A DNA stretch of 58,673 nucleotides from Hydrurus foetidus (taxonomy: Eukaryota). Positions 3,096 to 53,002 of this stretch are shown piece by piece. The translations under genes were made by a program, and so were the position numbers. How positions within the stretch are numbered: position 1 is the first letter of the stretch; each line of letters begins with the position of its first letter. The DNA lies in contig UYFQ01000033.1 in assembly GCA_900617105.1 (NCBI GenBank), positions 1 through 58,673 of the forward strand. Direction: 5' to 3'. The notes under the pieces were generated by a model. The model saw nothing but the letters and a program-made list of their open reading frames with translations, was not told where the DNA came from and did not search any database.

Positions 3096-3155
3096 TGTTG
3101 AATATATCTGAGTATATGACACGTACACAATCGGTGTACTTACGTTATTTAGCGT
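3096..3155 (+). repeat. Truncated 60-bp fragment of the Copia-A 5' LTR
   Basis: Identical to 12140-12199 (TGTTGAATATATCTGAG...), preceded by the same GTTTC target sequence. Confidence 0.9.
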
Positions 3156-3201
3156 CCTGCCTCACTAACCCCGTCTCATCAAATTATTTGTACTCTAATA
3201 G

Positions 3202-7844: not shown

Positions 7845-7878
7845 GACCGATGACTGCTCACTGCAGGCGGAGGAAGCA

Positions 7879-11354: not shown

Positions 11355-11767
11355 ATGATGCAACTTACTTTGACTAAACTTGTCACGATATTGCGCTTTA
11401 AAACAATTTGCGGATGTCAATATTGAGACTAGTCTCGCATCAGCTACTGCAGTCTGATAGTTCAACCAAAAGCTTCTCGATGCGATTACCCAACTTCAAG
11501 CGCACACTCCACGAATATGCCACTCATTCCAGACGCTTTTTGATGCTAGCACATTCTGCAACCCAGATGCTATTAGATTTGATCTCAGTTTTGTGTCATT
11601 TATTTGATGAAATTTGATCACACTTCACACTTTCGTCTCGTAATTTAGTTCTCAGTTATCAAATCGGCCAGAAGGACAGAGCAACCCTCATCCCCGTTTT
11701 CGTTATGCTGTACATTCGAACGTGTTCGAGGTGTCAAGCGCACTTGGATGCATCCACTTTTATTGGA

Positions 11768-12139
11768 TCCTAATTTAGAACGGTGGTGATGATGAAATCA
11801 GTGAGAAATTGCTCTGGATGATGCGTTCATTGAAAGCTACCAGGCTAGTCATTGATGGATGACATATTAGTATCTATCGTAATTTGCTTGAAAGTCATCA
11901 GTAGCTGTCATGGATAATGAGTTCTAATCGAAAGCAACTTCCAATTCTTGGTCGATCTCGGGATATTGACAACTTTTGAACCAAGGAGCGCATTTCGATA
12001 AAGATAAACGCAACCATCAGACTCACCATAGTCAAGTTAGTCGAGTCGAGCAGGAGCAACTTCAACGGTGGAACTTTTATGATCGGTATATTTGTGAGAG
12101 ATGACACTGTCGATTGATCGATATATGCTGTGATGTTTC
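11768..12139 (-). repeat. Right TIR of Sola2-like element, inner part (interrupted by Copia-A)
   Basis: 372-bp reverse complement of 7473-7844; continues after the Copia at 25219-25262. Confidence 0.9.
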
Positions 12140-12461
12140 TGTTGAATATATCTGAGTATATGACACGTACACAATCGGTGTACTTACGTTATTTAGCGTA
12201 CTGCAGTACGCTTTTTTGAGTAAGTACGCATACGTGCGGGGGATGGATGAGCGAGCTCGGGATTCACAAGCTGCAACCGTAGAGTAGTATATGATCGTAT
12301 GCATTGTTTGAACTCGTGGTCTTTCGACTGATGAAGCACAGTCTAATTAACAAGTGATTACTGATACGTTAGATCTTATTTCACGAGCCTTGAGCACTTC
12401 GAACTTACGCCGCTGTACTTCAGTACTTTCGCTGGCGTCAAGACCTCGGATTCTTTCAACA
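12140..12461 (+). repeat. Copia-A 5' LTR
   Basis: Direct repeat of 24892-25213, one substitution seen; TGTTGAA...TTCAACA terminal inverted repeat. Confidence 0.95.
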
Positions 12462-12470
12462 TAATTAGAC
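12462..12470 (+). promoter_or_regulatory. Copia-A non-canonical primer-binding site TAATTAGAC
   Basis: Directly abuts the 5' LTR; reverse complement of GTCTAATTA at 12341-12349 inside the LTR; no TGG. Confidence 0.7.
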
Positions 12471-12486
12471 AGAGTCGGCAATTCAA

Positions 12487-14071
12487 ATGCCTCCAAAACG
12501 TGTTCCTGAAGCCGTAAAAAGCAATGAAGAATGCATACTGCTTTACGGAAAGCACAACAACGTCATAAAGTGGAAAGAGCACATGCAGACGATCATAACC
12601 GAATTGTACGGTATCATCGGTATGTTCTTCACCACGAACCAAAGATATGAACTTCCAAGAGTGTCATACAGGGATTACCCAGTTGACTCATCTTCGGAAA
12701 GTGAAAGCTCCGAGTCCGAGGTGGAGGAAGAGGGAGTTGAAGCACCGGCCTTATCAGCCGAAATGATCGCTACAATCGCAGCCGCGAAAGCGGTACGAGC
12801 AACAGCGAGAGGTGTGAGGAATGATCGAAAACGGAAGATTGCCGAGAGGGCAAGAGCGAAGTTTCGAGAGGACGATTACATCCAGAGGAAAAAAGACCTC
12901 AAAGCGCAAAAGGAGCACGAACGTACGGTATATCCCATGATGTGGAAGCGTATGTCTCCAGCGTCGCAGAGTAGAGTGAGAGAGGAGGAGGATTTCGAGC
13001 AAGCATACATGACGCTGGATTGCGTGCTGCTCTGGTCACTTATACGTAAAACGCATCTCACCCACATCTTCGGGGACTCAGACCCGATGAATGACGTGAA
13101 CATGCACGAACAGGAGAACAAGTACAACTCGCTTAGACAGGGCGAGCGCGAGTACATATCAAACTTCAAAGTGAGATTTGACGAGCAAGTGTCAGCAAAT
13201 GACGGAGTGGGAGTCACACCAATATCGGAGTCTCGAAGAGCACTTGACTTCATCATGAAGCTCGACCCTAGACGGTACAAGAAGATGCACGACGAGATGA
13301 AGAACGATGCACTTCGATGCGTTCCTGATGCCTACCCCAAGACACTGGCGGGTGCTTACCGCGTTGCATCGCAGTGGACTGGCAGTGACCACAGCCCGCA
13401 CGCCGGTGCAGCCGCGAAACCAGCGGCTTTCGTCACAGAGGGTGCACTAGTCGCGACCGAAGACTCCGAGAAGGTGTCGGGTAAAACAGGGGGTGGTAGG
13501 AAGAAAACTCCTCTAAACGAAGTTACCTGTCATGTGTGTGGACACACTGGGCACTACGCGAGAAATTGCAGTAAGCGCAAATCATCTACTGATAAAGCTC
13601 ATGTGACTACAACCGATGCGGACGATGTTGACTCGGATGGGTACGATGTAGCACTCATCACTACAGTGGAATCATGCATGTTCTCGCAATACGACGTGTT
13701 ATTGGACAATGAAGCATCGTTGAACATTTTCAGTAACGGAGATTTACTTACAGGATTAAGGAAGTCAGATAAAACTATCAATGTGGGTGGAATTCAACTC
13801 GGGAAAGGGGTGACTGTCAATATGGAGGGTGACTTCGGGGAGCTTGGACGAGTATTCTACAGTGCAGCAGCATCAGCCAACGTCCTGTCATTCGCTTCTC
13901 AAGTCGACTCTGGAGCGGCTGTGAGATACGACCACGCTGGCGATTGTTTTACACTACAACCACGGAACAGCTCGAGTGTCCACTGCTTCAGTAGGAAGGA
14001 CATACCCGGCAGCGAAGGCCGATTCTACAGCTGTGATTGGCGAGAAGTGATAAAGGAATCAGCAATGGTAG
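12487..14071 (+). CDS. gag: Copia-A gag-protease (5' part of single gag-pol ORF)
   Basis: Zinc knuckle CHVCGHTGHYARNC and protease-like LLDNEA. Joins in frame to 21571 once the Gypsy and one TSD copy are removed (ESAMV|ATVENN). Confidence 0.9.
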
Positions 14072-14288
14072 TATGGCCTAACTCTGGGCTCAGCGGTGGG
14101 TCTGATGGAACGGGGCGCGTGGGCAAGGGGAAGGCAGCTGGTGTGCTGGTGCTATTGCTAAAGAGATGTGGTTAGCTTACAGATAAACACAGCGATAGGC
14201 AAGTCATGAATCGGATGGCTCGGATCGTCCCCGATCCGAACCGAACGTACGCCTGTACCCGTACAGCTGTACAGCTGTGCGGGTCACA
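14072..14288 (-). repeat. Gypsy 3' LTR
   Basis: Direct repeat of 21350-21566 with 2 substitutions seen; sense termini TG...TA. Confidence 0.93.
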
Positions 14289-14292
14289 ATGG

Positions 14293-14303
14293 CCCCTCTC
14301 TTT
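14293..14303 (-). promoter_or_regulatory. Gypsy polypurine tract AAAGAGAGGGG
   Basis: Purine run 4 nt before the 3' LTR on the element sense strand. Confidence 0.8.
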
Positions 14304-14503
14304 GGAAGAAAAGGTGTACTAAATTTTTCATTAACAAACTTATCTATGTCTAAATACTAACATAAAACTACTATCTCAGACTGAAAACATAAAGTTCGTA
14401 CTGAGTAAACCTCCCTAAAATCTGTTAGGATGAAAATTGGGAGTAATCTTTATGATTTAGTGTTTTTTTTTTGTAAACCTTTGTGTTTTATACTGTGTAT
14501 CGG

Positions 14504-17500
14504 TTAACGATAATTTGCAGCAAATTTACTTGGAATCAAGTGTTTAAGGTTTTTAGCAATTAAGAACTCGTGGACTTTTTCAGCGTCACGCATGTTTTTC
14601 CACGGTTCCCAAGTGTTTCTGTCGTGGGGATAGTTTAGCCATTTGACGTGAAACTTTAATGTTCCCACCACTCGGATGTTCCCTTCCATTGCTAGGATAT
14701 CTTCGATAAAGAATTCGAGATAATCTCGTCGGGCGATATCGGTTGGGTTGACCTTTGTAGGGTCAAACTCAAATTGTTTAATATTTGATACATGGTATCT
14801 TTTCTCGCGGTTGGTAATAAGATCGAGTAGTGTATACTCGTCGAGATCGTTTGCGACCACTTGCATGGGACCTTTCCATAAAGTGTGCATGCGTGTTGGT
14901 TTTGATGTGCGGTGGGTAACCAGTACCAACGAGTCGATTTCGAACGTTGTGTAGTCGGTGGAACCGCCTGCTTTTCGTTTCTCGTCCGCTTCTTTGAGTA
15001 GTTCAGCAGTGATTCTGATGAGTTCATCTTGCATCTGCATTATTTTCTCAGTAGAATGGGTGACATGAGCCATGTCTAAGTTTATCTCATCTCGAGGGAG
15101 AAGGATGTTGGCATCAAGGTCAATAGCATTGCCGTATATAAGCTTTGCTGCTGTTGACTGTGTCCGTACGTTGAATGTCGTATTTATAATTCGTTGTACG
15201 AATGGTAAAATTTCTCGGTAGTTTTCCGTAGTTGCACGGTCAAATGTAAATGCCGTGATGTGTCGGTTAATTTCCTTATTCATACGCTCTACTATCGAGT
15301 TTTCTTGCGAAGAGTATGGTAGAATAAGGTTGTGTGTTGTACCGGCAACTTTTACAAATTCCTCGAGGATTTTGTTTACGAAATGGGAACCGTTATCGGA
15401 TCGCAGGAATTTGGGAGCTCCGTAGCGACCGATGTGTTCTATTAGGCCTGTTACGGCTGATTTTGCAGTATTATCAGTTGTGGCTGATAGTTCGACAAAC
15501 CTTGTGAAGGTGTCTACCATAACAAGGATGTATCCTTTATCCGGGAATGGACCAATAAAGTCTATGTTTATGCATTCCATAGGTGCATATGTTGATGTTG
15601 TGAAACGATGGGTGACGGGTTTTGTTTGTCAGCAGACATCTTTTGGCAGCACGGGCATTGTTTAATGTATGCTCTTATATCGTGTCTCATGCCTTCCCAT
15701 ACTTTCCCTATTTTTTTAGGTTTCGCAAAGTGCGATTGAATCCTCCGTGCCCAACGGTAGAGTTGTGGACACGCATTAAGTATGCATATATTTCCGCTGC
15801 AAGCGGTTTGCAAGTTAGGATTGCTGTTATGATGTGTTTCGGCATCTTGTTTTTACATAGGCGTGACATTGCGTCAGCGACTTCATTATTTTTCCCAGGG
15901 ATATACCCTATCGTAAAATCTAATTCCTGTAGCGCACAGCGCCATCTTCCGACCATCTCATTTTTATCCTTGTGCAGGAAAGTAAGATTTTTGTGATCGG
16001 TCAGGATAGTAAACTTACGATCTCGTAGCAGGGCGTCGAGATAGTCACAGCAAAAGTAAAGGGCGTAAGCCTCTTTTTGTATTACGGACCATCTCAACTG
16101 GGTCTTGGTAAGAGATTTGCTTACGAGAGCGACGAGTTGTTTACTCCGTCGACTTCTTGATATAAATAACCACCTATACCGTAGTCAGACGCATCTGTCA
16201 TGAGGGTAATAGGTGCTACATCGTCGATGAAATATAATAAGGGACTCTTGGAGATAAGATCTTTGACTAACGTAAACGCGTCGGCCGCTTCGTCTGTCCA
16301 GACAAGCAATGTTTGCTTTTGGCGGCGTGATCTATCATTTTGTGTAGCGGTGCTACCACATTTGAGTGATTTGGTACATGATCCCTAAAGTAATTGGTGA
16401 GACCGAGGAACGAACGTAGTTCAGTTGTCTTTCTTGGCATCGGAAAGTCAGTCACACCCGTTATCTTTTTGGAGCTCATTGATATACCTTCCTTAGATAT
16501 TTGTCTACCAACATATTCAACTACTTTGACGTTAAGTCTTAGCTTTGCAGCCTTGAGTGAAATGTTTTTATCTTCTAGACGTTGAAACAATGTTTCTAAA
16601 CGTTCACAGAATTGGATGTGTCCATCAGCATATATGATGATGTCGTCTAAATAGACTTCACAGATGCTGTATATCAGGCCAAGTAGTACTATTGACGCCA
16701 TCATCTGTTGAAAGTATGATGGGGCCATCTTGGGACCGAATGGTAGTCGTGTGAATTGGTATATACCCATAAATGTTATAAATGCGGTAAATACTTGTGC
16801 CGCCAGTGTTATTGGGGCTTGGTGGTATCCGGCCGTAAGGTCGATTACGCCGAATACGTTTGGCCGTTGCGCGCCAAGTCTGTATAACATTTGTTTTATA
16901 TTTGGGATCGGCCAACTTGCAGATTCGGTTGCCTCATTGAGGTTCCTGTAATCTATGCAGAATCGGAGTGAACCGTCTGGTTTATTTGCAAGTATTACTT
17001 GGGAGTAATATGAGGCATCTGATGGTTTTATTATTCCCTTTTTGAGCATTGCTACGATTTGTTTCCTGATTTCCTCTTGTCGCATCGTTGAAGCGACTCT
17101 GGGAGCACCCCGATTACGGAAGTGTTTCCATTGAGGTATGTTTACCTTTTTGAAATCGAAAGGGGGAATTCGAGCGGGTTCTGGACCCAGCTCGTTTTTG
17201 AAAAGCGATTTGTGTTTTATGCAAATCGCTTTAATTTCGGCAATCTCAGTTGGTGTACCATCGATATGTATTAAATCAATTAAGTACATCGAATCGTTGT
17301 TTTGATTGTCTTGAAAAGGAGCGAAGGTATCCTTCGACTTGTAGTCGATCCCTTCCTTATCACGGAAAGACCGAACCTCAGGGAGGTCTTCGTCTTCCTC
17401 CCTAAGTAGAGCTGCCGCAATACCACGCGTTTCGGTTGGTGTTATGGATGAGGGTGTAAGAGTAGCTACTCTCTTACGCCTTTTGGTTTTTACACCAGAT

Positions 17501-20500
17501 CCATTCTGACGCGGAAGTGGCAACACTAGTGTTGTCAAATTGGTGGTGCGTAGTATGGACTCATCGGAAGCAAGCTGAGCAACTGCCGTCGCTGAGCTTG
17601 TAGAACACCCGCATGAAGAGTTGCAAGTCTTGTGTGTACAAGCACCTCGAGCTACCAGGTTATCCTGCCGGGGAAAGTCTGTAGTCGAGGGATTTATGCC
17701 CTCCATGACAAAAATGCCAGGAGGTAATGGGGACCCTGGGTCAGCTATTTTACTTTCCTTTTGGACAGTGTCCTTTTCCGTTAGTAACGGTAAAGGAATT
17801 TCCGTTTGGATTGTGTCTGCTGACGCTGTTTTGGCTGATATTACCTCGGGGGGTAGTTCGGTGTCTATGAGTACCGTGTGTGGTACTTGTGCATCGTCCT
17901 CAGCCGAGAACGACACCCTTTGTTTTTTTAGCGGTGAAGCTGGTATCGCACTAGGCGTTATTTTATCGAGGTTCTGGAAGAACTCTGGTATTATTTTTAC
18001 CAAATTTAAATTTTTTATAGTCTGTAATCCTAAGATTAGGTCGACTTTTGACTCCGGAGCTACTCGGACAGGAAGACTAAAAGAGTGTTTTAAATCGTCT
18101 TTATTAAATGATACAACAATATCAAGCACATTTGTAGATTCTACACATTGATTATTTAAGCCACTACACATCCACATGGGTGAGTCGGATTTCCTCAAGT
18201 GAGTTTCGCCACGGAGGCCCCGAAGGACTCTACCGTTGATGACGTCCCCGACTTGACATCCAGTGTCGATTTGGGCTAGGGCTTCCATGCCTCTAGTTTG
18301 GGACGTATTGGTTGGAGGAGGAGGAAGACGAGGAAGATTTGTGTCTGTCCCCCTCCTTGCTCTCCGCCTGGTGCGAGTTGTCCCTGCGATCGTCAGGTCG
18401 GTCGCGACTTGGTTTGAAATTTGCGATCGGATCTGTGGTAGAGATATGTGAACTTGTAAGAAATCATCTATGTTTTCAGTTAGTACAGCTGATAGAAGTT
18501 GTTTCATTGACGGTAATTCTCGAGCGTACTCGATTATGTCCGTACTTGGGTTAGCAAGTTGTGACTTACTTTTTCCCTTGTAGTTGGAGCTCAACTTGTT
18601 CGTGTTAGAACGATCGTTGTCCCTATCCGGTTGAGTCTGGTTGCTCTTGTACTTGTTGTACTTGGTGTTGTTGTTGGTGGCCAGCTTTTGTTTCTTGGTC
18701 GGACGGTCGTCTTGGGCTCTCCCTGGAGGAGAGAAGTCGTTCTCCACATCGTCAGATGGGTACACGTAGGTAGCTGCCCCGGGGTTGTTGGTGTCCCGGG
18801 TAAGTTCCCCGTTGATGTACACATTTGGTACGAAGAATTCGTGACCAATCCGTTTGAAGTCCTTTGCCTCCTCAGACTGCGACCAAGTGCGATGACTACG
18901 GTTGCAGTGAGGGTTCATGTGGTTTTGGCATTCGTAACGGTTGTGTCCCTTTTTGCCACAGGTGTGACAGAAGTTGGTCGCCCGGCTGAGGCCGGACGAC
19001 TCAGGGTCCACCTGACGTTTTGGGATTGCCTTGTAGGCGTTAGCCGAGTGGCTGTCACGGTGAGGTGCGACCTCAGCGTCGTCTTGGTCTGTTGGCGTGA
19101 GCTTTGACTCGAAGACGAAGTCGAGACCTCCCATGTCCTCCGCGTCTTTGATCATCTGGCGTGCTTCGCCCAGCATGACGACAAGACGCGTGAGCATTTT
19201 GAAGATGGTATCTTTCCCGGTCTTTTTCGTCTTACGTTTTGTCTTTGCCATGAAATTGTCTGTAAACTTGTTGTTCTTTGGCAGCTTCTTGTAGAAGGCC
19301 TTACAGATATCATTTTGCATGTCGGCATCGATATTGTCGTATGACGTCCAGAATCCGAGTAGGATGTCGCGGAACTCAGAGAGAGCTCTGTCTTCAACAG
19401 AAGGATCTTTCCAGCTGATGCGGAATTTGCAATTCTTCAGTTTCATTTCGAAGTCGAAATGGGAAGACGTACGTTTGTTTTTGTAAAAGATCTTTTTAAG
19501 ATCATTTGCAATGTTCTTTAACGTTAACGTTTTGCCTTCGACCGTTGGCCAGGCGAGACAAGTCTTGGTGTTGTAACCTGTCTCGCTTTTGCATCGAAGC
19601 AACTGGTCGCGGATCGTTTGGATGGCATCCATTTCGATTAGCATTTCCCAACTGGTTAACATACCGGGGCGGTATGCTTGTTCGTAAAACGCTCTTGCTG
19701 CTTTATCAGCGTCGTCGAGAAGTTTTTCTCGAGTGAGGTAGTACGCCTCCTTCATGTTGATGATGGAGGTTTGCAAACCCGCTTTGCGTTGTGGAGGGGA
19801 ATCCTCTTCCGAGTTTTCCGCCTTTTGCGCGCGGTGTGTTTTACCGGATTTGGCATCGGCTTTGGTTTTCACCTTTTTGTCCTTTGGGGCGGGTTTGGGA
19901 CCCGCCTTTGGGGACTTTTTCTTGGCGAGGGGTTTTATCTTAAGGGACTTCTTGTCCTTGGGCTTAGACTTTTCGGGTTCGACCTCCTCGTCGTCTTCGA
20001 CTTCGACTTCAGCTTTCGCCTCATCGTCGTCGCTGTTGTCGTTCCCGTCGTCGTCCCCGTCACCCTCTCCGTCGTCCCCGTCGCCACTACTTGCGTCGGA
20101 CTCGTCGGAGGAGCTGTCGGGGTTGCCACCATCGCCTCCCGTGTCGTTAACGTCGTCGACGTTACTGTCGTTGTCGTCGTCGGACTCGTCGGGGGTTTGT
20201 CGTCGTCGTTGTTGTTGGCATTGTCGTCACCGTCGGCGTCAGCCTCCGGATCTGACTCGGCGTCGGCCTCGGCCTTGCCGGTGTCGGATGCCTTTGTTGT
20301 TGTGACTTTGGCGTCGACTGATGGTTCGAACAGATCGTCCTCTGCACCGATTTGTTGCAGTCGCGGAGGGAGTATCGAGGTTTCTCCCCCTCTTTTTAAG
20401 TACCCGCGGGTATCGAGGGGAGAGTCTGTCTCGCCCTCGGCTTCCTCGGGTGCCAACCCGAGGAGCTCGTCGTTTGAGGGTTCTAAAGCGTCGGCAGCAG

Positions 20501-20801
20501 CTTGTGCAGCAGCTATTTGTGCTTGCTCTAGCTTGTGAGCTGCTTGCATTTCTTTTGTTGCCGCTAAGACGCTTTGGAAGAAAATTTGTTCGTCCTCAAG
20601 ACGAGTTGGGGTAGCCGAAACATGTATTGCTTCTTTGGCCAGAGCCTGTATCGATTTCTCGATGTTTTGCTTTACAAGGGCCTGCTCCGCTTTGTGCTTC
20701 TCCTTCTCAGTGAGAGGAGCACTGCGCGAAGCGCTTGGAGCTGAAGAAGCAGAGGCGGCTGCGTTAGCAGCCGCTTTCTTCTTTATTTGGGCCCTTGTCA
20801 T
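14504..20801 (-). pseudogene. pol: Gypsy gag-pol polyprotein broken by five apparent single-base frameshifts
   Basis: Acidic N-terminal gag, CHTCGKKGHNRYEC knuckle, protease IDTG, RT YLDD, RNase H TDASDYGIGG, integrase H-H-C-C and D-D-E, WKGP motif, chromodomain (FHVKWLNYPHDRNTWEP), spread over six ORF-track fragments. Confidence 0.9.
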
Positions 20802-21349
20802 GGGACTTTTGTCTTGAGTTTAAACGTCTTGATCTTGGGGTCTTGGACAGCGACGGAACTCGGACGCGGCTCTCTATGGAGCTGAGGATGTATCCCGCAG
20901 CTATGATGTCGTGGGATCGTAGGATCCTTTAAACTGATGGAGCTGTTGGTGGTTTACTTTCGCGCGATTTCGTCGGAAATCGCTCGAAAAGTTGCCTGGC
21001 GGTTTGAACCTCTCAAGGAGCTAAACTGCGGGCGTTTTGGCCAGCTTTCGTTTCTCTAACGATGGGACTTGCTTTTGCTCGACTCAGAGCTACTTGCTTC
21101 GTTAGGCTTCGAGTTTTGAAGCCGTCACGATTTTGTCGCGAAAATATCGACGACTCGAGCTTTTTAACTAAAGCGTTTCAGAGGCTGTCGGTTAGACGTA
21201 GCCTTTGTAGTGTCTTTCGACGTTGTTTTCACTTGTTGCCAAGTTACTAGCTTGTTTGCACGCCGTTTTACGGGTCGTGGCGATGTTTTTGGGAAGCGTT
21301 TTGGAACTGGTCTCTAAAAAGAGCACCAAGTTGGTCCAAATACTAGTAT

Positions 21350-21566
21350 TATGGCCTAACTCTGGGCTCAGCGGTGGGTCTGATGGAACGGGGCGCGTGG
21401 GCAAGGGGAAGGCAGCTGGTGTGCTGGTGCTATTGCTAAAGAGATGTGGTTAGCTTACAGATAAACACAGCGATAAGCAAGTCATGAATCGGATGGCTCG
21501 GATCGTCCCCGATCCGAACCGAACGTACGCCTATACCCGTACAGCTGTACAGCTGTGCGGGTCACA
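21350..21566 (-). repeat. Gypsy 5' LTR
   Basis: Direct repeat of 14072-14288. Confidence 0.93.
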
Positions 21567-21570
21567 GTAG

Positions 21571-24500
21571 CGACAGTGGAGAATAACGCAAAGGCATTTA
21601 CCAAACGTGAGATTGAACAGGCGCGTAAGGCACGAGAGCTGTTGGCTCGTATGGGCTTCCCCACAGTTGGGCATGCGATCGCGATTCTCAACTCTGGAAG
21701 CAACTTCGAAGTTACCGCTCGCGATTTCCAAATTGCTGACGCAATCTGGGGAGCAGATATTGCCTCGCTGAAAGGAAAGACGACCAAGAAAGCGACACCG
21801 GTAGCTGACATCACAGTCAACGCAAAGATTGTCCAACAGGATCAAGTGCTCGCGATAGATATCATGTTCGTCGATAAAACCTCAACGCTCATCGGGATAG
21901 CAACTCCGCTGGGGCTGACAATCGCATACAGCCTTAACAACCTCGATATGAATAAAGCTTCGAGAGCGGCTGGCAACATCAAAAAAGGGATCGACCACTT
22001 CGTCACGACGCTGGCGTCGCAGAACTTCAAGACGAAAATGATTATGAGCGACGGAGAGAGAGGAGTAACAAGCTTAATCCCCCAGCTTGAAGCGATGGGC
22101 ATCGAAGTAGACATCAGCGGTGCTGGAGGGCACGTTGCCAGAGTTGAAAGGAGAATCCGAGTTATTAAGGAACGACTTCGTTCCCACGTCGCGTATCATC
22201 TGCCATTTACTCTGTCGAGTATGGGGATAGCGATGTGTATTCTGTATTGTGTATCCCGGCTAAATTACGAGCCATACGGAGTACGAGAATGGGGCCCAAG
22301 TCCAAGGGAGGCTTTCATCGGACGTAAGGTGGATGGAAAGAAGGATTTCAGGTGTTCCTTCGGTGACTATGCCCAGTGCACTGTGCCCACCACCGACAGT
22401 ACTATGAAGGGGAGGACTGAGGATTGCGTCGTAATGCTTCCACTGGGAAACCGCACCGGAACTGTGCGTATGTTATCACTCACAACGGGGCGATTTGTGA
22501 ATAGAGACCAGTTTCAAATACTGCCAATGCCGCTATCAGTTATTCAGAGGATGAACGATCTCGCTCTGAAAGACGGAAGAGTAAAAGGGAAGGGAGAGCT
22601 AGCTCAAAAGCCAACTACATACAACATGCAGAGTGATGTGGGGAGCAGTCTACCGGACATCATGGAGTCCGTAACGAACAATGGAATCGACCCATCGGTA
22701 ATTCTAGAGAACGACGAGGTCACTCCGGAATTAGCGAACAACGAGGAGGTTGGCAGGGAACCTGAAGGGAATAGGGGTGTAGACGACATCACTCCTGAAG
22801 GCGAACATGATGGGAATGGGGGTGCGGATGATGTAGAAATGCAGATCAATGACACTGACTACGCCGACGATGCAATCCCAATATTCATTCCACAAGGGAA
22901 ACCTAAGGAAGTCAACATGGATGACCTGATACACAGTTTCGGAGGGCTAGGTTCGGGGAAGTATGACGACGAAACCATCGGGGGTATAGGTGACGAAGAC
23001 GACGCAACAACGGGAGCGGCGGTGGGCGGGAACGACACGGGCGCACTGCTTGATGTATCGAGTGAAACTGAAGATACACAGCATGTCGAACAATTGCATC
23101 GACGCCGTTTGGACATTATGGAGTTATTTCGCAAGGGAGTGAACGGTGGAGCGCTGCTGACCAGACTATACATCGAGCCAGGAGAGGACTGGGGTGAGCA
23201 TGTCTTTAACATCTCAGTAAAAGAGGCGCTACGTACTCGTGGGAAAGATGCCGAGAGAGTTATCGAAAAGGAACTCGGGCAAATGATAACGAAGAAAGTG
23301 TGGACTCCTGTCGACATTAAGTCACTACCATATGAGGAGAAGAGAAGGATCATCAGGTCCAGTATGTTTCTGAAAGAGAAATTTCTTGCGAGTGGGGAGT
23401 TTGAGAAACTCAAAGCTCGACTTGTAGCCGGCGGGGATCAGCAAGACAAGTCACTCTATGACGATCTCTCCGCGCCAACAGTCGGAACGAGCTCAGTGTT
23501 TACGATACTCAGCATCGCAGCGCATGAGAGAAGGGGTGTAGCGGTCATAGACATCGGAGGAGCATTCTTGCATGCGGATATGAGCAAAGGGATACCTGTG
23601 CACATGCGTCTAGACAAGAATATGTCGGAAATAATGACGAAGCTAGCGCCAGAGTATGAGCAATACGCCGATGCGAGAGGATGCGTGGTGGTGAAGTTAG
23701 ATAAGGCGCTATATGGATGCGTAGAGTCGGCTGCACTCTGGTATGAGAACTTGCGAGTGAGTTTCTCAGATTTGGGATACACACCGAACCCATATGACAT
23801 CTGCGTCTTCAACAGACGCAACGAGCAAGGCGTGCAATGCACGGTGGCAATACACGTTGACGACTTGTTGATCACAAGCGCGTGCACACTTATGATCGAG
23901 GACCTGGCGGCAGGTTTAGTAAAGAGATATGGAGAAATTACAAGAAAGAACGGGCCTGTTGTTAACTACTTAGGCATGGTGTTTGATCTCACAACCCTAG
24001 GGGAAGCCAGGGTGACCATGACGGGGTTTGTGGATGAAATGCTGAAGGAAAGTGGCATCATCGGGAAAGCCCGCACACCAGCAACGGAGGGTCTATTTGA
24101 TGTGAGACTCGATGTTGAGACGGTGACTGAGCAGCAGAGAGTGACCTTCCACAGATGCGTGGCGAAGCTGCTGTACCTGGCCAAGAGGGCACGACCTGAT
24201 TGCCTTACTGCCGTGTCTTTCCTGGCGACGAGGGTAAATAAGTGTACCACAGATGACCTCATCAAACTGCAGCGACTGTTGCGATATGTGTATGATACGA
24301 AGGAGAGAGGTGTTGTGTTTTCGCCCGGAGGGTCTGGAATTGAAGTGAGCGTGCTGATTGACGCCGCATATGGAGTACACCCTGACGGGAAATCCCACAC
24401 AGGAAGCTGTGTTATTATCGGGGACGTAGGGGCAGTGCACTGCAAGTCAGCAAAACAACAGATCGTGACGAAGTCTAGTACTGAAGCAGAGCTGGTAGCG

Positions 24501-24830
24501 CTTTCTGATTCGGCGAATCAGTCTCTACACATCAGGAATTTCGTGCTGGCACAGGGGCACTCATGCGGACCTGTCACCATCTACCAGGACAACATGTCCT
24601 GTATGGCCCTGATAGATCGAGGGAGATCGACAGCGGAGCGTACGAGACACATAGCCATCAGATACTTCTGGGTGAAGGAGCGTGTGGACACAGGGGAAGC
24701 GAGGGTGCAGCATCTAGGGACAAAGAAGATGTATGCAAACCTACTGACCAAGCCGCTCCAGGGAGCGCAATTTCAAGAAGAGAGAAAAGGGATCACGGGA
24801 TGGAGCGATGCAGTAGTGATACAGACGTAG
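21571..24830 (+). CDS. pol: Copia-A integrase, reverse transcriptase and RNase H (3' part of gag-pol)
   Basis: IN (IDIMFV, SDGE, VERRIR), RT (KARLVAGG, DIGGAFL, LDKALYG, HVDD), RNase H (DAAYG, SSTEAE, YQDN, ANLLTKPL). Confidence 0.95.
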
Positions 24831-24881
24831 AAATAAAGTCATCAACATGCATAACTCCGTCAGTACCGATTGAGTAAGTGC

Positions 24882-24891
24882 CATAGGGGTG
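24882..24891 (+). promoter_or_regulatory. Copia-A PPT-position motif CATAGGGGTG
   Basis: Abuts the 3' LTR; an identical 10-mer is at the same position in Copia-B. Confidence 0.75.
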
Positions 24892-25213
24892 TGTTGAATA
24901 TATCTGAGTATATGACACGTACACAATCGGTGTACTTACGTTATTTAGCGTACTGCAGTACGCTTTTTTGAGTAAGTACGCATACGTGCGGGGGATGGAT
25001 GAGCGAGCTCGGGATTCACAAGCTGCAACCGTAGAGTAGTATATGATCGTATGCATTGTTTGAACTCGTGGTCTCTCGACTGATGAAGCACAGTCTAATT
25101 AACAAGTGATTACTGATACGTTAGATCTTATTTCACGAGCCTTGAGCACTTCGAACTTACGCCGCTGTACTTCAGTACTTTCGCTGGCGTCAAGACCTCG
25201 GATTCTTTCAACA
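24892..25213 (+). repeat. Copia-A 3' LTR
   Basis: Direct repeat of 12140-12461. Confidence 0.95.
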
Positions 25214-46246: not shown

Positions 46247-46543
46247 AATAGCAATTAATGAAATGTAAACCTCAAGCCAGCAGCAATTTGAAACCACAAT
46301 TATGTCACGAAAAATAGGCCAAAGCTAGCAATTCTAACTGGAATGCGATATGATGGAAGTGTTCTGATTGTTCTCGATCTTGATTGATAACTTCCTCGAT
46401 GAAATTCGAACTGAAAGTTGACAGCAAACAAATGACACTTCAGAGTCTCCAGCAGTGCGGTCGGTCTACGGATCGGATGGAAAGTTCTTGAGCTCTTCTT
46501 GAAGCATTGCCGTGTGTACGTGCGTATTTACACTGTACCGCTG

Positions 46544-46896
46544 TGTTGTGAAATGTGGACTCAGAGGTGTGACGTATGTCCCATACGGTTGGTCACAAGC
46601 TCCCCACTGCACTCTCCGATGCGGCTTCACTCGCTCTGTCTGGAGTCAGAAGAGAAGTTTCACTGTCGGCTACGAGTTTGGGTTAATTAGCACTGCTGCA
46701 ACGCAGTAGTAGTCGAGTGTAGTCAGTAGTTGTCTCAACGGGTTGATGGCTATGCTAGATCAAATACGTCATATCGTATGTAGTACGGTACTGCTGTGGT
46801 GCAACACCGTACGTATGGTTCAAATATGAAATACAGATAATAGCATCACAATTCGTATACGGAATATCTAGTCTACATAATACTGATATTACTACA
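46544..46896 (-). repeat. Copia-B 3' LTR
   Basis: Direct repeat of 52489-52841. Confidence 0.95.
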
Positions 46897-46906
46897 CACC
46901 CCTATG
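46897..46906 (-). promoter_or_regulatory. Copia-B PPT-position motif CATAGGGGTG
   Basis: The + strand reads CACCCCTATG next to the 3' LTR; identical to the Copia-A motif. Confidence 0.75.
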
Positions 46907-47441
46907 ATGTGTTATCGTATTCAATTCAAACAAGTTTATTCAATTATTATTTCAAAGGCATTAAATTAATTCATACATGTTCGTTCATTATTAATCATAA
47001 ATAAAGTTTCGTCAATGGCTCCGGAATGTTACGTCGGTGTCTTGAAGATCGATCTCAGTCGGAAAAGAATGTAGTGGAAGTTTGCTGTAGGAATTTGTAG
47101 GCGGTAGAAATAGTTGGCGGTTGGAATTGTCGGTTATAGGAGGAAGTTTGTTTTTGGCAAAGTTGGCGGTTTGAAGTAGTTTATCGTAGGAATGTTGGTT
47201 CTGGAGTCTTCGTCTTGATGTGTCTTCAGTTGATGTGTCTCGACCATGTGTGGTGTAGGCTCGAGTGTAGGTGTCTTGAGTGTTCAGGTCTTGGAGGTTG
47301 ATGTTGTAGGGCAGAAGGAATTCGATGGAATTGCAGATTCATAAAAACAGATTCATATAATACATAGGGTTGATGTTGGCCAAGGTAGCAGAAATGGTGT
47401 TGGCAAAGCGTAGGTAGAAGAAATTTGATGGATTGGAATAC

Positions 47442-50400
47442 TCAGGTGGTGTTGAGTAGTTGGTTGCGGAAAGCTCTGAACTGCTCTCCTTGAAGGGGTT
47501 TCGTTAGCATGTCTGCTAACATCTCGTTGGTTGATTTGTAACTGATGGTAATTTCTTGTTCTTTTATCCGGTCATGTAGGAAGAAATACCGGATATCGAT
47601 ATGCCGCGTACGTTCGCTGTTGGAGCGACCGTTGTTAATAAGTTGGATGGTGGATTTGTTATCTTGGAATATGATGGCGCTCCTATCTTTATATCCTTGA
47701 TTTATGAGGAATAGTCTGGTCCATAGCACTTGGTTGGCTGAGTCGCTAAGTCCTACTAGCTCGGCTTCGGTACTTGACTTCGTGGTTAGCTTTTGAGTTG
47801 AACTCTTAGCATACACTACACCTTTCCCTAATGTGATGGCGCTTCCTGTGTGACTCTTCATGTCGTGATGTACTCCGTAGGAAGCATCGACATAGCATGT
47901 AACAGTGGTGGGGTCCTCTATCTGTAGTGTGAGGCCAAGGTCTCTAGTGTGGCGTACGTACTGTATGGTACGTTCCAGCTTTTTCAAGTCGTCCACTTGT
48001 GGTTTCGTCACCCGCTTCGTCAGGAACGCTACCGGCGTCAGAATATCCGGCCTCGCTCTTTTGCTTAAGTACAGCAGTTTTGCTGTAATTGAATGAAAGA
48101 ACTCACGAGCAGAAGTGGTTAGTAGTGAGTTAGAGGTATCCGGTTTAACCGTAAATAAATCCGGCTTGGCCGGTGTCGGTGCCACCCCTAAAATCTCTTT
48201 GCAGTCTTCTAGCAGCTCTTTGATAAATCCTTCCATAGTTATCTTCACTTGTCCCGCTGTCTCGAAATTAAAAGTCATACCTATGTAATTAAGTACTTTT
48301 CCTCGATGTTTCGTTAGTCCGGGATATAGTTTTTCAATTTCATAAATTACCATATCAACATATTTGTCATTGCAACACGATATCATCATGTCATCAACGT
48401 GGATGATCAATGTGGTTTGTGATTTATTATTTTCAGTTCGATTAAACACGCACATGTCATAAGCATTAGCAGTATACCCTAATACGGACAAGTCATGTGA
48501 AATTTTATCATACCACAGTTTTGCAGATTCAACACATCCATACAACGCTTTTTTCAATTTAACAATGCATGTACCCTTTTCATTAACATATTTCAAATAT
48601 GATTTATCAATGGATGTCAAAACACCAGTCAAATATTTATTCAATCTCATAAATACAGTGTGACTACCCTCAAGTGGCATATCGCTATTTAAAAATGCTC
48701 CTGGAAAATCTATCGTAGCTAATGATCTATTCTCTTTCGCAGCAATTGAAGCAATTATAAACACACTAGTGGTGCTAACTGTAGGTGATGAGCCATTATC
48801 GTAAATATCTCTATCCTGTAAATGACCTCCTGCAACTAATCTCGATTTTAACTTATCGAATTTACCTTCTGCAGTATACTTATCTTTTAAAAACATACTA
48901 CTGGTTATGATGTTGTTACGTTGTAATGGTGTTAGTGAGTTGATCAACACTCCTTCCCACACATCTTTCTCGCACATCTGTTGCATTTCTTTTCTAATGG
49001 AATCGATAGCTATATCACCTAACTTATCGATACCGTCTTTAACAGTCATGTTAAAAGCATATGAACAATCAAGGCGATGCAACACTTCAGGTATACAGCA
49101 TCCTATGTTCCTATTTCCTCTGTTAGATGCCCATCTACCTGGCTGGTGATTTCTAGCGCTACGTCTCAAAGCAGGCTGTTCTATCTCAGGTAGTTCATCT
49201 GTAAGTACGTCATCTACTGTGTACGTATCTTCTATGGCATCAACAGTTTCATCATATGTAAGTACATTGTCATCAACGTACGTGCTGTTTACATCAGGTG
49301 CATCATATTCCATCGCAACATCGTCATGTTCAATAGGTTCGAATTCAGCATCATTAGTCTCTAGCTGCACTGTATAATCGTCTGTCATAGCATCATTATC
49401 AGGCATATCATTAAAATCATTTTCGTCATTCATCACTGGCACATAAGGCAGTTCAGGCATCACATGTGGTTCAACATCATATGAGTCATCATACATTTCA
49501 TCTGAATGTGGTATGTGTGAATTACTAAATCTTCTCATATTATTATTATAAATTTTCTCATCATCATAATCAAGTCCATCATCATCAATCACACGCCTGT
49601 TCTGTTCGAATACAGGTTGATTAGTGTTATTACCCTTATTAATGTTTCTCTTATCAGATAATCCATTTAGGTAAGTAATAACTTCATCAGGCATTGGTAG
49701 TGATGTGGCTTTAGTGCGTTTAACTATCTGTTCATTACTGAGTAACATGTAATACCAAGATCCTTCTAGATTGCCACTACTCATCAGAGCGATAGCACCT
49801 GAAGTTCTGGCTTTATTACTATTATCAATATTGTCAGAATGCACTTGTACATAGTCACCAAAACCATGTTTCAGTTCTTTATCTACATTTATCTTTCTAC
49901 CGTATAGTTTCTCTCTAGGGCTGACGTAGTCTACGGTATTCCTTGTCGGAACTAACACTATACGGTTAACAACATATCTAACTAACCATCCTTCTAACTT
50001 CTCAGTTAATCTAAATGGTAGTGTGTTGATTACTGCTCTAACTCTCTCTTTAATCTGTCTGATCTTACGCTCAACTACGGTAACTGCCTCACCTGCACCT
50101 GTCGTGTCTAATGCAGTACCTATTGTAGCTAACTTAGTCTCAAACCATACTGAATTGATGGCGCCCTCTCCATCAACTCTGACTAAATTTAAACTGAAAC
50201 CATACTTAGTTATGTGTCTAATATCACTCTCTAAGCTAGTCCAAAGCGTAAGATTGGCTCTGTTATTTAACTTATTTACCATAGTATACTCTAATGGCTT
50301 AACAACGGCAATTAAAAATGGATTGCCGTTAACAAACATAATGTCTATATACATGGTTTGATCTCTCTGTTGTATATTATCTAACAGTGGTTGCTCCTCT

Positions 50401-51188
50401 TCAACCTGTGCCTGATGGCTCGGCGTTTTTCCCTTTAGGGAGCCTAAGTCAGGACCCCAGATATCCAAGGATCTAACTACATCTTGTGATGTTATATTAC
50501 TGTTGACTAGTTTACCCTGTCCTATCAGCTTAATTAATTGTCCTGGACTAGCGTATCCTAATTTCCTCTGATATTCTCTAGCTAACTCAGCTTGTTTTAC
50601 CTGTGTAACTGTGTACTTCTTCATCTTATCTGTCACTGTCGTAACTAACATTAACTTAGGCTTACTTACCATTGTGTCTAAATTACATATATATATATTA
50701 TACTTTTCGTCTCTGTTAAAGTAGTAACAACATCCGCCTCGTTTGATTTGCAAACTATAAAAATCGCTCCCACTACTATACTTCATAGAGTAACTATTAT
50801 TTACCATATTAGCAAAAGACAAGATGTTGGCTATACAATTAGGATCATAGTAGACTGATCCGAAATCCGTCATTCCGCGTTCTCTGATTACCATCGGCTT
50901 TCCTCTACTGTTAACTCCATTAACTACCATAGGTGTATCAGCAGGCACTATGTCATAGAACAGTGTGGCAGTTCTAAAAACAGATTCACCAGCACAAGTG
51001 TCAAGAAGCAATTGATTGTCAGCAAATACATTAGAATCATTCATGATATCTATGCTAAATATATTGCTATCTACTGCTGGGGTCTCCGTCACAGGAGCTT
51101 CGTCATCTATAAATTTGATTTGTACATATTTAGAAATACGTACGTGCTTTACATCATCTTTCACAACACTAGTCACACTGTTATTCAC
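47442..51188 (-). CDS. pol: Copia-B pol (PR-IN-RT-RH), frame open up to the gag stop in the -1 frame
   Basis: LLDTCAG protease, IDIMFV/RVDGE/VERKIR integrase, KSRLVAGG, HVDD RT, DASYG/SSTEAE/FQDN/ADMLTKPL RNase H. Confidence 0.95.
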   Translation of the reverse strand: MNNSVTSVVKDDVKHVRISKYVQIKFIDDEAPVTETPAVDSNIFSIDIMNDSNVFADNQLLLDTCAGESVFRTATLFYDIVPADTPMVVNGVNSRGKPMVIRERGMTDFGSVYYDPNCIANILSFANMVNNSYSMKYSSGSDFYSLQIKRGGCCYYFNRDEKYNIYICNLDTMVSKPKLMLVTTVTDKMKKYTVTQVKQAELAREYQRKLGYASPGQLIKLIGQGKLVNSNITSQDVVRSLDIWGPDLGSLKGKTPSHQAQVEEEQPLLDNIQQRDQTMYIDIMFVNGNPFLIAVVKPLEYTMVNKLNNRANLTLWTSLESDIRHITKYGFSLNLVRVDGEGAINSVWFETKLATIGTALDTTGAGEAVTVVERKIRQIKERVRAVINTLPFRLTEKLEGWLVRYVVNRIVLVPTRNTVDYVSPREKLYGRKINVDKELKHGFGDYVQVHSDNIDNSNKARTSGAIALMSSGNLEGSWYYMLLSNEQIVKRTKATSLPMPDEVITYLNGLSDKRNINKGNNTNQPVFEQNRRVIDDDGLDYDDEKIYNNNMRRFSNSHIPHSDEMYDDSYDVEPHVMPELPYVPVMNDENDFNDMPDNDAMTDDYTVQLETNDAEFEPIEHDDVAMEYDAPDVNSTYVDDNVLTYDETVDAIEDTYTVDDVLTDELPEIEQPALRRSARNHQPGRWASNRGNRNIGCCIPEVLHRLDCSYAFNMTVKDGIDKLGDIAIDSIRKEMQQMCEKDVWEGVLINSLTPLQRNNIITSSMFLKDKYTAEGKFDKLKSRLVAGGHLQDRDIYDNGSSPTVSTTSVFIIASIAAKENRSLATIDFPGAFLNSDMPLEGSHTVFMRLNKYLTGVLTSIDKSYLKYVNEKGTCIVKLKKALYGCVESAKLWYDKISHDLSVLGYTANAYDMCVFNRTENNKSQTTLIIHVDDMMISCCNDKYVDMVIYEIEKLYPGLTKHRGKVLNYIGMTFNFETAGQVKITMEGFIKELLEDCKEILGVAPTPAKPDLFTVKPDTSNSLLTTSAREFFHSITAKLLYLSKRARPDILTPVAFLTKRVTKPQVDDLKKLERTIQYVRHTRDLGLTLQIEDPTTVTCYVDASYGVHHDMKSHTGSAITLGKGVVYAKSSTQKLTTKSSTEAELVGLSDSANQVLWTRLFLINQGYKDRSAIIFQDNKSTIQLINNGRSNSERTRHIDIRYFFLHDRIKEQEITISYKSTNEMLADMLTKPLQGEQFRAFRNQLLNTT

Positions 51189-51229
51189 ATTATTAAATAT
51201 ATCGGCATGTAATGAATCATATAAGCCAC

Positions 51230-52453
51230 TTACTTTCCCTTCCCAGGTGATGCAGTGGGTTTCCCTCCAGGGCTCTTGCCTCCTTCCTCGCCCCAGTATT
51301 GGGCTACAGTCTCTGCTGCCTCTGCTCTACACTCCCTAGCAAGATGCCCGTACTTTCCACAATTGTTGCATGGCCCTCGCTTGTACCCCGCTGGTGGGGA
51401 TTTGTTGGATGTGTAGGCGGCGATAGGAGATCCTTTCTCGCTGCTGCTGCTTCCTTCTAGGTAGTCTGCTCCATCCTTCACCCACTTCGCGTTTGGCGCA
51501 CTTTTTCCCTTGTGCCCTCCGGGGTAGCCTCCTCTGCCGCCCCTGCCTCCTCTGCCTGTCATGGCGAAGGCATTCGCTCTGTCCATAGCTGCTGGCGAGT
51601 TGGACGCTGCTCGCTTCGGATTATATTTGGCTGATTCCTGGTAGGCTACTTCCAGAGACTCTGGCCATGGCTTCAACCCGTTGGTGAAAAAGGACTTGAA
51701 TTCTCCGTAGTTTCCATTGAGTCCCAAGATGAATTTCACGGCCATTTGGCCCTCCGGGTATGTCTCATCAAGTGCTCCACGGCCTGCCATTTCATAGGCT
51801 TGTTGGATGGCCGTGAGAGCTGACTTGGTGTTAGTGTAGTACATACTCAAATTGTCGTGTTGTCCCATGACCAAGTTATTATAACGTTGTGTTATCATGT
51901 ACATTTGGTGCTGTACTCCTAGCGTAGAATCTCCGATGTGAGTGACCAGTATAGCTTGCATAAGCTTCCTTGGTTCGAACTCATTTTCGGCTTCAATACC
52001 GGCCTGCACTTCTGATACTCTCGTCTTCGAGCTCTCGGACATTTGTCCTAGCATAGCTCCATAGAGGTTTCCTTTATCTTCTTCGAGAGTTTTAACATTT
52101 TTGTTGTAATCTACCATTCCTAGTTCCCATATCTTTCTGTCGTAGACGGTTGCTCCATCCTCTGGCTGGTCTGGCAGTACATAAGCTGGATAGTCTCCAA
52201 GAGTTCCGTCAGTACCAAATATCATACTGACTCTTGATTTAAAAGTTGTCATGGCATACTCCTTGAGTTTGGCCATCCACTTGGTAACCGTCCCATGGGC
52301 GATGTCCTTCCCAGGCGGTAGATCCAAGTATGCACCGATCGTGGGGATATTCCCACGATGGTGGTTCGGCGTCGCTGGAGATCCTCTCCCAACGCGACCC
52401 GCAAAATAGCCTCGTCCACGTCCCTGCTGGGGACTTCCACGGCCTTTCATCAT
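51230..52453 (-). CDS. gag: Copia-B gag
   Basis: First ATG at 52453; RGG-rich segments and zinc knuckle CNNCGKYGHLAREC; stop TAA at 51230-51232. Confidence 0.9.
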   Translation of the reverse strand: MMKGRGSPQQGRGRGYFAGRVGRGSPATPNHHRGNIPTIGAYLDLPPGKDIAHGTVTKWMAKLKEYAMTTFKSRVSMIFGTDGTLGDYPAYVLPDQPEDGATVYDRKIWELGMVDYNKNVKTLEEDKGNLYGAMLGQMSESSKTRVSEVQAGIEAENEFEPRKLMQAILVTHIGDSTLGVQHQMYMITQRYNNLVMGQHDNLSMYYTNTKSALTAIQQAYEMAGRGALDETYPEGQMAVKFILGLNGNYGEFKSFFTNGLKPWPESLEVAYQESAKYNPKRAASNSPAAMDRANAFAMTGRGGRGGRGGYPGGHKGKSAPNAKWVKDGADYLEGSSSSEKGSPIAAYTSNKSPPAGYKRGPCNNCGKYGHLARECRAEAAETVAQYWGEEGGKSPGGKPTASPGKGK

Positions 52454-52477
52454 TGCAACTTCTTGTTGCAAGCGATA

Positions 52478-52488
52478 AGTGCTAATTA
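52478..52488 (-). promoter_or_regulatory. Copia-B non-canonical primer-binding site TAATTAGCACT
   Basis: Abuts the 5' LTR; perfect 11-nt complement of sense AGTGCTAATTA at 52639-52629 in the LTR. Confidence 0.75.
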
Positions 52489-52841
52489 TGTTGTGAAATG
52501 TGGACTCAGAGGTGTGACGTATGTCCCATACGGTTGGTCACAAGCTCCCCACTGCACTCTCCGATGCGGCTTCACTCGCTCTGTCTGGAGTCAGAAGAGA
52601 AGTTTCACTGTCGGCTACGAGTTTGGGTTAATTAGCACTGCTGCAACGCAGTAGTAGTCGAGTGTAGTCAGTAGTTGTCTCAACGGGTTGATGGCTATGC
52701 TAGATCAAATACGTCATATCGTATGTAGTACGGTACTGCTGTGGTGCAACACCGTACGTATGGTTCAAATATGAAATACAGATAATAGCATCACAATTCG
52801 TATACGGAATATCTAGTCTACATAGTACTGATATTACTACA
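52489..52841 (-). repeat. Copia-B 5' LTR
   Basis: Direct repeat of 46544-46896. Confidence 0.95.
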
Positions 52842-53002
52842 CGCTGTGCCGTATGTACGATAACGTATGTACAGTAAAGTGTTGTGGCACTGAGGGTTGA
52901 GCATAGTATTGTGATGATGGATGATGTCGCCATCAATACGAATTCATTGCCGATTCGATAGCGTTACTTCGCAAATCGGCTGCGGATGCTGTCGATGCCA
53001 AC

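What the first reader, a model, noticed from the sequence alone, without database searches (positions are those of the whole stretch)
52478..52639. Candidate self-priming Ty1/Copia element: 11-nt PBS complementary to its own LTR (Copia-B)
Seen: immediately after the 5' LTR (..CACAACA) the sense strand reads TAATTAGCACT rather than the TGG... complement of a tRNA CCA end. About 150 nt upstream, inside the LTR, is AGTGCTAATTA, its exact 11-nt complement, starting at the A of an initiator-like CA+1GT. The 3' A of that 11-mer pairs with the first base after the LTR, so extension would copy U5 with no spacer. Known: this is the arrangement of S. pombe Tf1 (a Gypsy element), where the first 11 nt of the mRNA anneal to the PBS and are cleaved by RNase H to make the primer. 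Copia elements are generally described as using whole or half tRNAs. Inference: a tRNA-independent, self-priming Copia lineage; I know of no established description but cannot search the literature here.
Basis: partly seen in the sequence, partly recalled or inferred. Interest (0 to 1): 0.88.

Follow-up and report, generated by a model that had tools for sequence, protein, structure and literature searches.

The report
Self-priming Copia retrotransposon in an alga
A young, intact jumping gene, likely from a golden alga, has no usual tRNA-end binding site; the 11 letters after its left repeat pair perfectly with a piece of that repeat, and most testable relatives keep such a pairing with different letters, so the group likely starts copying itself with the front end of its own RNA.

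Summary
Copia-B (46544-52841, minus strand; 353-bp LTRs, 1 mismatch, 5-bp TSD) has an 11-nt tract right after the 5' LTR that is the exact complement of LTR positions 52639-52629. A second Copia in the window (36% pol identity) shows a 9-nt version. Among 31 metagenome contigs with a contiguous LTR-to-gag region, 27 carry a perfect 10-21 nt LTR complement starting at the first base after a CA, and none starts with TGG. Across 48 distinct sites the letters differ while pairing holds, and the LTR copy starts at an initiator-like CA in 43. Best reading: Tf1-like self-priming (0.85); start site and cleavage are untested. Against: for this one element a half tRNA-Ile pairs more strongly in silico, though not beyond chance across 48 sites; Tf1's flanking 'pretzel' helices were not detected. 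Novelty is limited: self-priming is proven for Tf1 and already predicted for plant TAR Copia (PMC6317226), and this scan noted the same clade earlier in diatom DNA. I found no printed report for stramenopile Copia. This window adds intact, boundary-defined elements in a probably non-diatom host.

The parts
52489..52841 (-). 5' LTR of Copia-B, 353 bp, TGTAG...CAACA
   Evidence: twin of 46544-46896 with 1 mismatch
52629..52639 (-). Predicted self-primer, 11 nt, starting at the A of CA (predicted +1 of the RNA)
   Evidence: start site inferred, not mapped
52478..52488 (-). Primer binding site, directly after the LTR, exact complement of 52639-52629
52453..52471 (-). 7-bp hairpin between the PBS and the gag ATG
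   Evidence: sequence; MFE fold
51230..52453 (-). gag ORF from first ATG, with a CCHC zinc knuckle
51233..51239 (-). G GGA AAG heptamer in the gag frame directly before the gag stop; candidate -1 frameshift site
   Evidence: same heptamer near the gag stop of L001
47442..51326 (-). pol ORF (1294 aa stop to stop), integrase-like region before RT and RNase H (Copia order); RT HVDD; RNase H D/E/D/D motifs present
   Evidence: RVT_2 E 3e-19; profile A1 matches an integrase chain over positions 203-625
46897..46903 (-). Short polypurine tract AGGGG plus a 2-nt TG spacer before the 3' LTR
   Evidence: same pattern in most circular relatives
46544..46896 (-). 3' LTR, holding the second copy of the primer sequence at 46684-46694
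52842..52846 (-). Target site duplication CAGCG, 5' side
46539..46543 (-). Target site duplication CAGCG, 3' side
12140..25213 (+). Copia-A: second element of the clade, 322-bp LTRs (12140-12461, 24892-25213), TSD GTTTC, interrupted by a nested Gypsy element
12340..12349 (+). Copia-A predicted self-primer (A, then GTCTAATTA; 9 nt pair, the first A does not)
12462..12470 (+). Copia-A PBS TAATTAGAC directly after its 5' LTR
   Evidence: 12 of 1000 shuffles reach 9 nt

Best explanation
Copia-B is an intact, recently inserted Ty1/Copia retrotransposon that likely primes its own reverse transcription: its RNA is predicted to start at 52639, and the first 11 bases would fold onto the complementary site right after the 5' LTR. 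Shown: the element, the pairing, its exact register at the LTR end, and the same arrangement with different letters across a wide clade. Inferred: the RNA start at the CA; a cut after base 11 (by analogy with Tf1, by the element's RNase H) that frees a 3' end; minus-strand synthesis starting with the last base of U5. Also inferred: plus-strand synthesis copies the attached primer back into the PBS each cycle, which would explain why both halves change together.
For: Unselected set: 27 of 31 circular or permuted contigs have a perfect match of 10-21 nt at offset 0 after a CA; 26 of 31 reach p<=0.02 against 100 shuffles each (null means 5.7-8.1 nt). The scan asked only for CA, yet 43-44 of 48 sites have AA before it, the inverse of the TGTT LTR start. 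0 of 31 and 0 of 48 have TGG in the first 5 nt. 48 distinct PBS 11-mers among 53 elements; own-LTR match averages 13.6 nt versus 4.6 nt for 2256 swapped pairs. Duplex positions 0-13 each hold three or four different Watson-Crick pair types. A CA with its A at -2..+1 of the duplex start occurs in 43 of 48 (background 23%), mostly TCAHT-like, matching the diatom initiator TCAH+1W. RT-RNase H identity within the set goes down to 32%. B's closest relatives with DNA (L001, L020; 52-54% identical) have the same 11-nt register with 3 and 4 changed PBS letters, each matched in the LTR. Predicted pairing probability exceeds 0.5 in 46 of 48 leaders, 0.96 for B. In contigs of run X4 no substitution at 8% or more fell in the PBS or primer while 11 fell between them (weak, contigs only).
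Against: No RNA start, primer or cDNA end was observed. For B alone the 5' half of tRNA-Ile(AAT) gives a stronger predicted duplex (-18.5 vs -12.4 kcal/mol). Tf1's two flanking helices were not detected (mean z about 0; 2 of 48 below -2 on each side), so how the primer is cut is open. L054 shows no match and L042 only a degenerate one; L030 has one mismatch and L033 only 9 nt. For Copia-A the predicted pairing probability is 0.04 when folded from the CA but 0.96 from one base later with a shorter tail. B's initiator context lacks the T at -2 found in 38 of 46. 22 of the 53 elements were picked by eye as positives from 68 linear contigs, so averages over the 48 are biased upward, and compensation counts are partly by construction.
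Confidence: 0.85

Rival explanations
1. This family is primed, wholly or partly, by a 5' half of host tRNA-Ile(AAU), as predicted for plant Bianca elements; the LTR copy would be a relic or a second option.
For: 8 perfect pairs at offset +2, then a G-U and 4+3 further pairs; -18.5 kcal/mol, the strongest of 48 sites. 17 of 3000 full shuffles and 51 of 4000 random window 22-mers do as well. A T-to-C variant at PBS +11, common among the host's other copies, gives -19.4. Half tRNA-Ile priming is predicted for 92% of Bianca elements.
Against: About 1% per site over 48 sites expects 0.3-0.6 such hits. The downstream pairs add nothing over chance (1152 of 3000 tail shuffles). At both positions where the PBS departs from the tRNA (+1, +10) it matches the LTR copy. 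L001, L020 and Copia-A match tRNA-Ile over only 4-5 nt, and match lengths over the 48 follow the shuffled null. The tRNAs tested are 16 genes from viral contigs, not host tRNAs.
Confidence: 0.07
2. The pairing is a conserved leader structure (closing the 5' end for packaging, dimerisation or translation control), and priming happens another way, for example by a short element-derived RNA in trans.
For: No pretzel helices; no direct evidence of cleavage; fungal GalEa elements lack a PBS and have a conserved hairpin whose role is unexplained.
Against: A structural stem would not need to start at the first base after the LTR in 27 of 31 contigs nor end at the predicted +1 in 43 of 48; G-U pairs or bulges would be tolerated, yet the duplexes are almost purely Watson-Crick; no other primer site was found.
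Confidence: 0.06
3. The match in Copia-B is chance, helped by the palindromic TAATTA core.
For: A+T-rich core; 11 nt is short.
Against: 2 of 20000 and 4 of 1000 shuffles; the same geometry in Copia-A and across the clade.
Confidence: 0.01

Closest known systems
Tf1/Tf2 of Schizosaccharomyces pombe and the Tf1/sushi group (Ty3/gypsy chromoviruses)
   Same: First bases of the RNA complementary to the PBS; 11 nt in Tf1, cut by RNase H between bases 11 and 12 (review passage, PMC7175516). Copia-B also has 11 nt.
   Different: Copia domain order and RVT_2-type RT; primer length varies 10-21 nt across this clade (mode 15); the three-duplex pretzel needed by Tf1 (bioRxiv 10.1101/2022.12.06.519325) was not detected; nothing here is shown experimentally.
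TAR lineage of plant Ty1/copia (Houba, Osr-1)
   Same: Copia superfamily; self-priming predicted from at least 10 bp of LTR complement starting 0-5 bp after the 5' LTR, in 89% of 203 elements; 5-bp TSD (PMC6317226).
   Different: Plant hosts versus stramenopile hosts here; TAR mostly one ORF, Copia-B has overlapping gag and pol. Relatedness could not be tested: no TAR sequence was available from the tools.
CoDi elements of diatoms (PMC2806351; branch 1 of Copia in PMC2774666)
   Same: One subclade of the tree contains proteins of the diatom Fragilaria crotonensis; 5-6 kb, TG...CA LTRs.
   Different: The passages I saw in those papers say nothing on priming. No named CoDi reference was aligned, so the link to a CoDi group is a likely reading, not a test. 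The window's host is probably a chrysophyte.
Fungal GalEa elements with the Conserved Hairpin Site (PMC5445492)
   Same: Copia without a tRNA PBS; a palindromic CTAATTAGT or CTGATCAGT after the LTR resembles the TAATTAG core here.
   Different: There the partner lies 12-41 bp downstream and the authors found no complement in the LTR; here the partner lies upstream inside the LTR.
Bianca lineage (half tRNA-Ile priming)
   Same: Copia-B's PBS has an 8-nt match to the tRNA-Ile anticodon arm.
   Different: The match is not kept in relatives.

Membership tests
Ty1/Copia LTR retrotransposon | LTRs with TG...CA, TSD, PPT | tested here: met
Ty1/Copia LTR retrotransposon | Copia-type RT, integrase upstream of RT-RNase H | tested here: met
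   RVT_2 at residues 814-1042; profile A1 positions 203-625 match an integrase chain, E 1e-7; Pfam rve itself did not hit
Self-priming LTR elements (mechanistic class) | No TGG tRNA-end PBS | tested here: met
   0 of 31 and 0 of 48
Self-priming LTR elements (mechanistic class) | At least 10 nt after the LTR complementary to the LTR | tested here: met
   11 nt in B; 27 of 31 relatives
Self-priming LTR elements (mechanistic class) | The complement is the 5' end of the RNA | tested here: inconclusive
   Initiator-like CA in 43 of 48; no raw RNA reads
Self-priming LTR elements (mechanistic class) | RNase H cleavage releases the primer | not testable with these tools
   Only the catalytic motifs were seen
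Tf1/sushi group | Ty3/gypsy chromovirus polyprotein | tested here: not met
   RVT_2, no chromodomain hit
Tf1/sushi group | Three-duplex pretzel leader | tested here: not met
   No excess pairing on either side of the PBS; a coarse test that could miss short helices
TAR lineage | Clusters with TAR in RT/RH/INT trees | not testable with these tools
   Reference FASTA too large to read; no TAR sequence from any tool
CoDi groups | Clusters with named CoDi RTs | tested here: inconclusive
   Diatom proteins fall inside the clade, but no named CoDi reference was available
Bianca-type half tRNA-Ile priming | Lineage-wide PBS match to half tRNA-Ile | tested here: not met
   Match lengths 4-6 nt in 45 of 48, like the null; 8 nt in B

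The most novel reading that the evidence does not exclude
A large, old Copia clade spanning diatoms and other stramenopile algae invented self-priming independently of both Tf1/sushi and plant TAR, and matures primers of 10-21 nt without Tf1's pretzel structure, hence by a different cleavage rule. A bolder add-on (about 0.05): Copia-B's primer still mimics half tRNA-Ile and records the switch from tRNA priming.
Probability: 0.5. Interest if true: 0.7.

Novelty: new variant of a known kind. Interest (0 to 1): 0.5.

Why it matters
If true, tRNA-independent priming is the rule in a widespread and abundant group of algal retrotransposons, and probably arose more than once among LTR elements. It gives exact, testable predictions (RNA start, primer length, cut site) and a natural series of primers of different length for asking how a Copia RNase H cuts an RNA duplex; in the passages I read, self-priming in Copia is only predicted. 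It also matters for annotation: pipelines that keep only LTR elements with a tRNA PBS (as in PMC7466962) would drop this clade. Such elements would also be out of reach of tRNA-fragment control at the PBS (inference).

Tried and rejected
No whole genome is held, so host tRNAs could not be compared; ARAGORN found none in the window. Two scans of viral contigs found no relatives. Rfam found nothing at E<=1 over the element, so no hammerhead or other known RNA. The pretzel test was negative. The Atlas look-up with homologue P0001 gave only RVT_2 clusters without useful taxa. The first tree dropped the circular contigs through my error and was redone; both trees are midpoint-rooted without an outgroup, so they do not show monophyly against other Copia. 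Primary Tf1 papers and the Tf1 review were not held; Tf1 facts come from review passages. Supplements of PMC2806351 and files 1 and 3 of PMC6317226 could not be read and may hold PBS notes or reference sequences. A look-up of earlier findings by sequence returned nothing and by place one unrelated note.

Full report
OBSERVATION. On the minus strand the 5' LTR ends ..CACAACA at 52489 and is followed by TAATTAGCACT; its exact complement lies at 52639-52629 inside the LTR. The LTR end does not rest on the pairing: it is fixed by the twin LTR at 46544-46896 (1 mismatch in 353 bp) and by CAGCG duplicated on both sides. Shuffling gives 2 of 20000 for the fixed 11-mer and 4 of 1000 for any match this long after a CA.

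THE ELEMENT. Copia-B spans 46544-52841. gag has a CCHC knuckle; pol overlaps it in the -1 frame and carries RVT_2. A short AGGGG tract and a 2-nt spacer precede the 3' LTR. A second Copia in the window (Copia-A, 12140-25213, TSD GTTTC, split by a nested Gypsy) is 36% identical in pol and has a 9-nt self-complement in the same register (12 of 1000 shuffles). The best named relative of a neighbouring host gene is from the chrysophyte Epipyxis (63%), with Pinguiococcus, Mallomonas and Pavlova lower, so the host is likely an ochrophyte, probably a chrysophyte; this rests on one gene. Contigs of four runs of one study show many diverged copies of the family.

RELATIVES. A pol alignment of 71 sequences retrieved 78 metagenome loci (the best 80 of at least 585 stretches) and 37 contigs in MAG bins, selected by protein only. 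31 contigs are circular or permuted, so PPT, one LTR and the gag leader are contiguous. A position-blind scan put the longest inverted match at or within a base or two of the LTR end in most of them. Scored at offset 0 after any CA, 27 of 31 have 10-21 perfect pairs and 26 of 31 reach p<=0.02. The other four: L033 9 nt (p 0.01), L030 16 nt with one mismatch, L042 degenerate, L054 none. From 68 linear contigs I picked 22 more positives by eye; I did not check the other 46 one by one, and many end before the junction. With the two window elements and without L042 and L054 this gives 53 elements and 48 distinct PBS 11-mers. Own-LTR matches average 13.6 nt, swapped pairs 4.6 nt (11 of 2256 reach 9 nt). 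None begins with TGG. The upstream copy starts at or next to the A of a CA in 43 of 48 against 23% expected, with T at -2 in 38 of 46; this fits the diatom initiator TCAH+1W (PMC4686930, passages). Length from that A to the junction is 10-21 nt, 15 in 25 cases; the first A is often unpaired; in 33 of 48 the duplex can extend one base onto the LTR's last A, but not in B. In the tree primer length follows subclades: B groups with L001 and L020 (11 nt), A with L027 and L033 (10 nt), and a 15-nt subclade contains Fragilaria proteins. RT-RNase H identity spans 32-92%.

MECHANISM. Shown: pairing, register, covariation, no tRNA-end site. Inferred: the RNA starts at the CA, its first bases anneal to the PBS, a cut frees a 3' end, and RT copies U5 from its last base. 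By analogy with Tf1 the cutter is RNase H (PMC7175516, passages). If the primer stays on the minus strand and is copied during plus-strand synthesis, each cycle rewrites the PBS from the primer, which would explain perfect pairing with free sequence (my inference; only the title of the Tf1 paper on primer retention was seen). Tf1 needs two more helices beside the PBS (bioRxiv 10.1101/2022.12.06.519325, passages); a duplex-energy test found no such excess in 48 leaders, so the cleavage step may differ.

THE tRNA-Ile RIVAL. Against 16 tRNA-Ile(AAT) genes from viral contigs, B's PBS has 8 perfect pairs at offset +2 and a predicted -18.5 kcal/mol, better than the self-primer's -12.4 and the best of 48. 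This occurs in 0.6% of shuffles and 1.3% of random 22-mers, so one case in 48 is expected by chance. Where the PBS departs from the tRNA it follows the LTR copy, and B's nearest relatives lack the match. It remains possible for this family; host tRNAs were not available.

WHAT IS KNOWN. Neumann et al. 2019 (PMC6317226; passages and supplementary file 5 in full) predict self-priming for 89% of 203 TAR Copia elements and cite an earlier proposal for Houba and Osr-1 (Capy 2005, not read). So self-priming Copia is not new as a concept. For stramenopile Copia I found no report: searches (listings; one search showed 20 of 457, none with the term), and passages of PMC2806351, PMC2774666, PMC3601003, PMC5029228, PMC7466962 and PMC5348765. 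The library lacks most subscription journals, Repbase and GyDB, and supplements of PMC2806351 were unreadable. PMC5445492 (passages and section 10) describes PBS-less fungal GalEa with a similar palindrome but no LTR complement. This scan's own notes report the same pattern in at least seven diatom-type windows; they are unchecked AI notes, seen after my counts were made, and are not independent support.

VERDICT. Real feature; likely Tf1-like self-priming in a wide stramenopile Copia clade (0.85). New variant of a known kind; interest 0.5. What this window adds: two elements with LTR ends fixed by twin LTR and TSD, a probably non-diatom host, a short-primer subclade, and a measured tRNA-Ile rival.

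Noticed in passing
window 51230-51326 (-); L001 near its gag stop: gag and pol overlap in the -1 frame with G GGA AAG in the gag frame 7 nt (B) or 10 nt (L001) before the stop: candidate -1 ribosomal frameshift, which I recall as unusual for Copia. 15 of 29 full-length loci are single-ORF, and 5 have one in-frame stop between two long ORFs.
   Followed up: partly
window about 14068-21566 (-): Gypsy element with chromodomain nested in Copia-A; 221-bp LTRs; where a PBS is expected lies a 12-nt palindrome AATACTAGTATT, with no self-complement over 5 nt in the LTR. Priming unexplained.
   Followed up: no
window 46897-46903; circular loci: Clade-wide very short PPT (AGGGG or CAGGAG) plus a TG/CG spacer before the LTR, while the PBS side has no spacer: the two cDNA ends may be processed differently.
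   Followed up: partly
window 1-3160 and 9045-12204; 2724-3095, 7473-7844, 11768-12139: A 3.16-kb near-identical direct duplication and a 372-bp inverted repeat in three copies around two long ORFs without Pfam hits (7843-9090, 8919-11354), plus a DDE_1 ORF at 3202-4647: probably DNA transposons.
   Followed up: no
L079-L115: 37 contigs of this eukaryotic retrotransposon clade sit in bacterial and archaeal MAGs of GTDB, most likely as binning contamination.
   Followed up: no
L010, L014, L015, L073, L078: In part of the 15-nt subclade a long leader with a small extra ORF-like stretch lies between the PBS and gag.
   Followed up: no
window 44885-45069: Tandem array of 5-nt units (GATAA/GACAA).
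   Followed up: no
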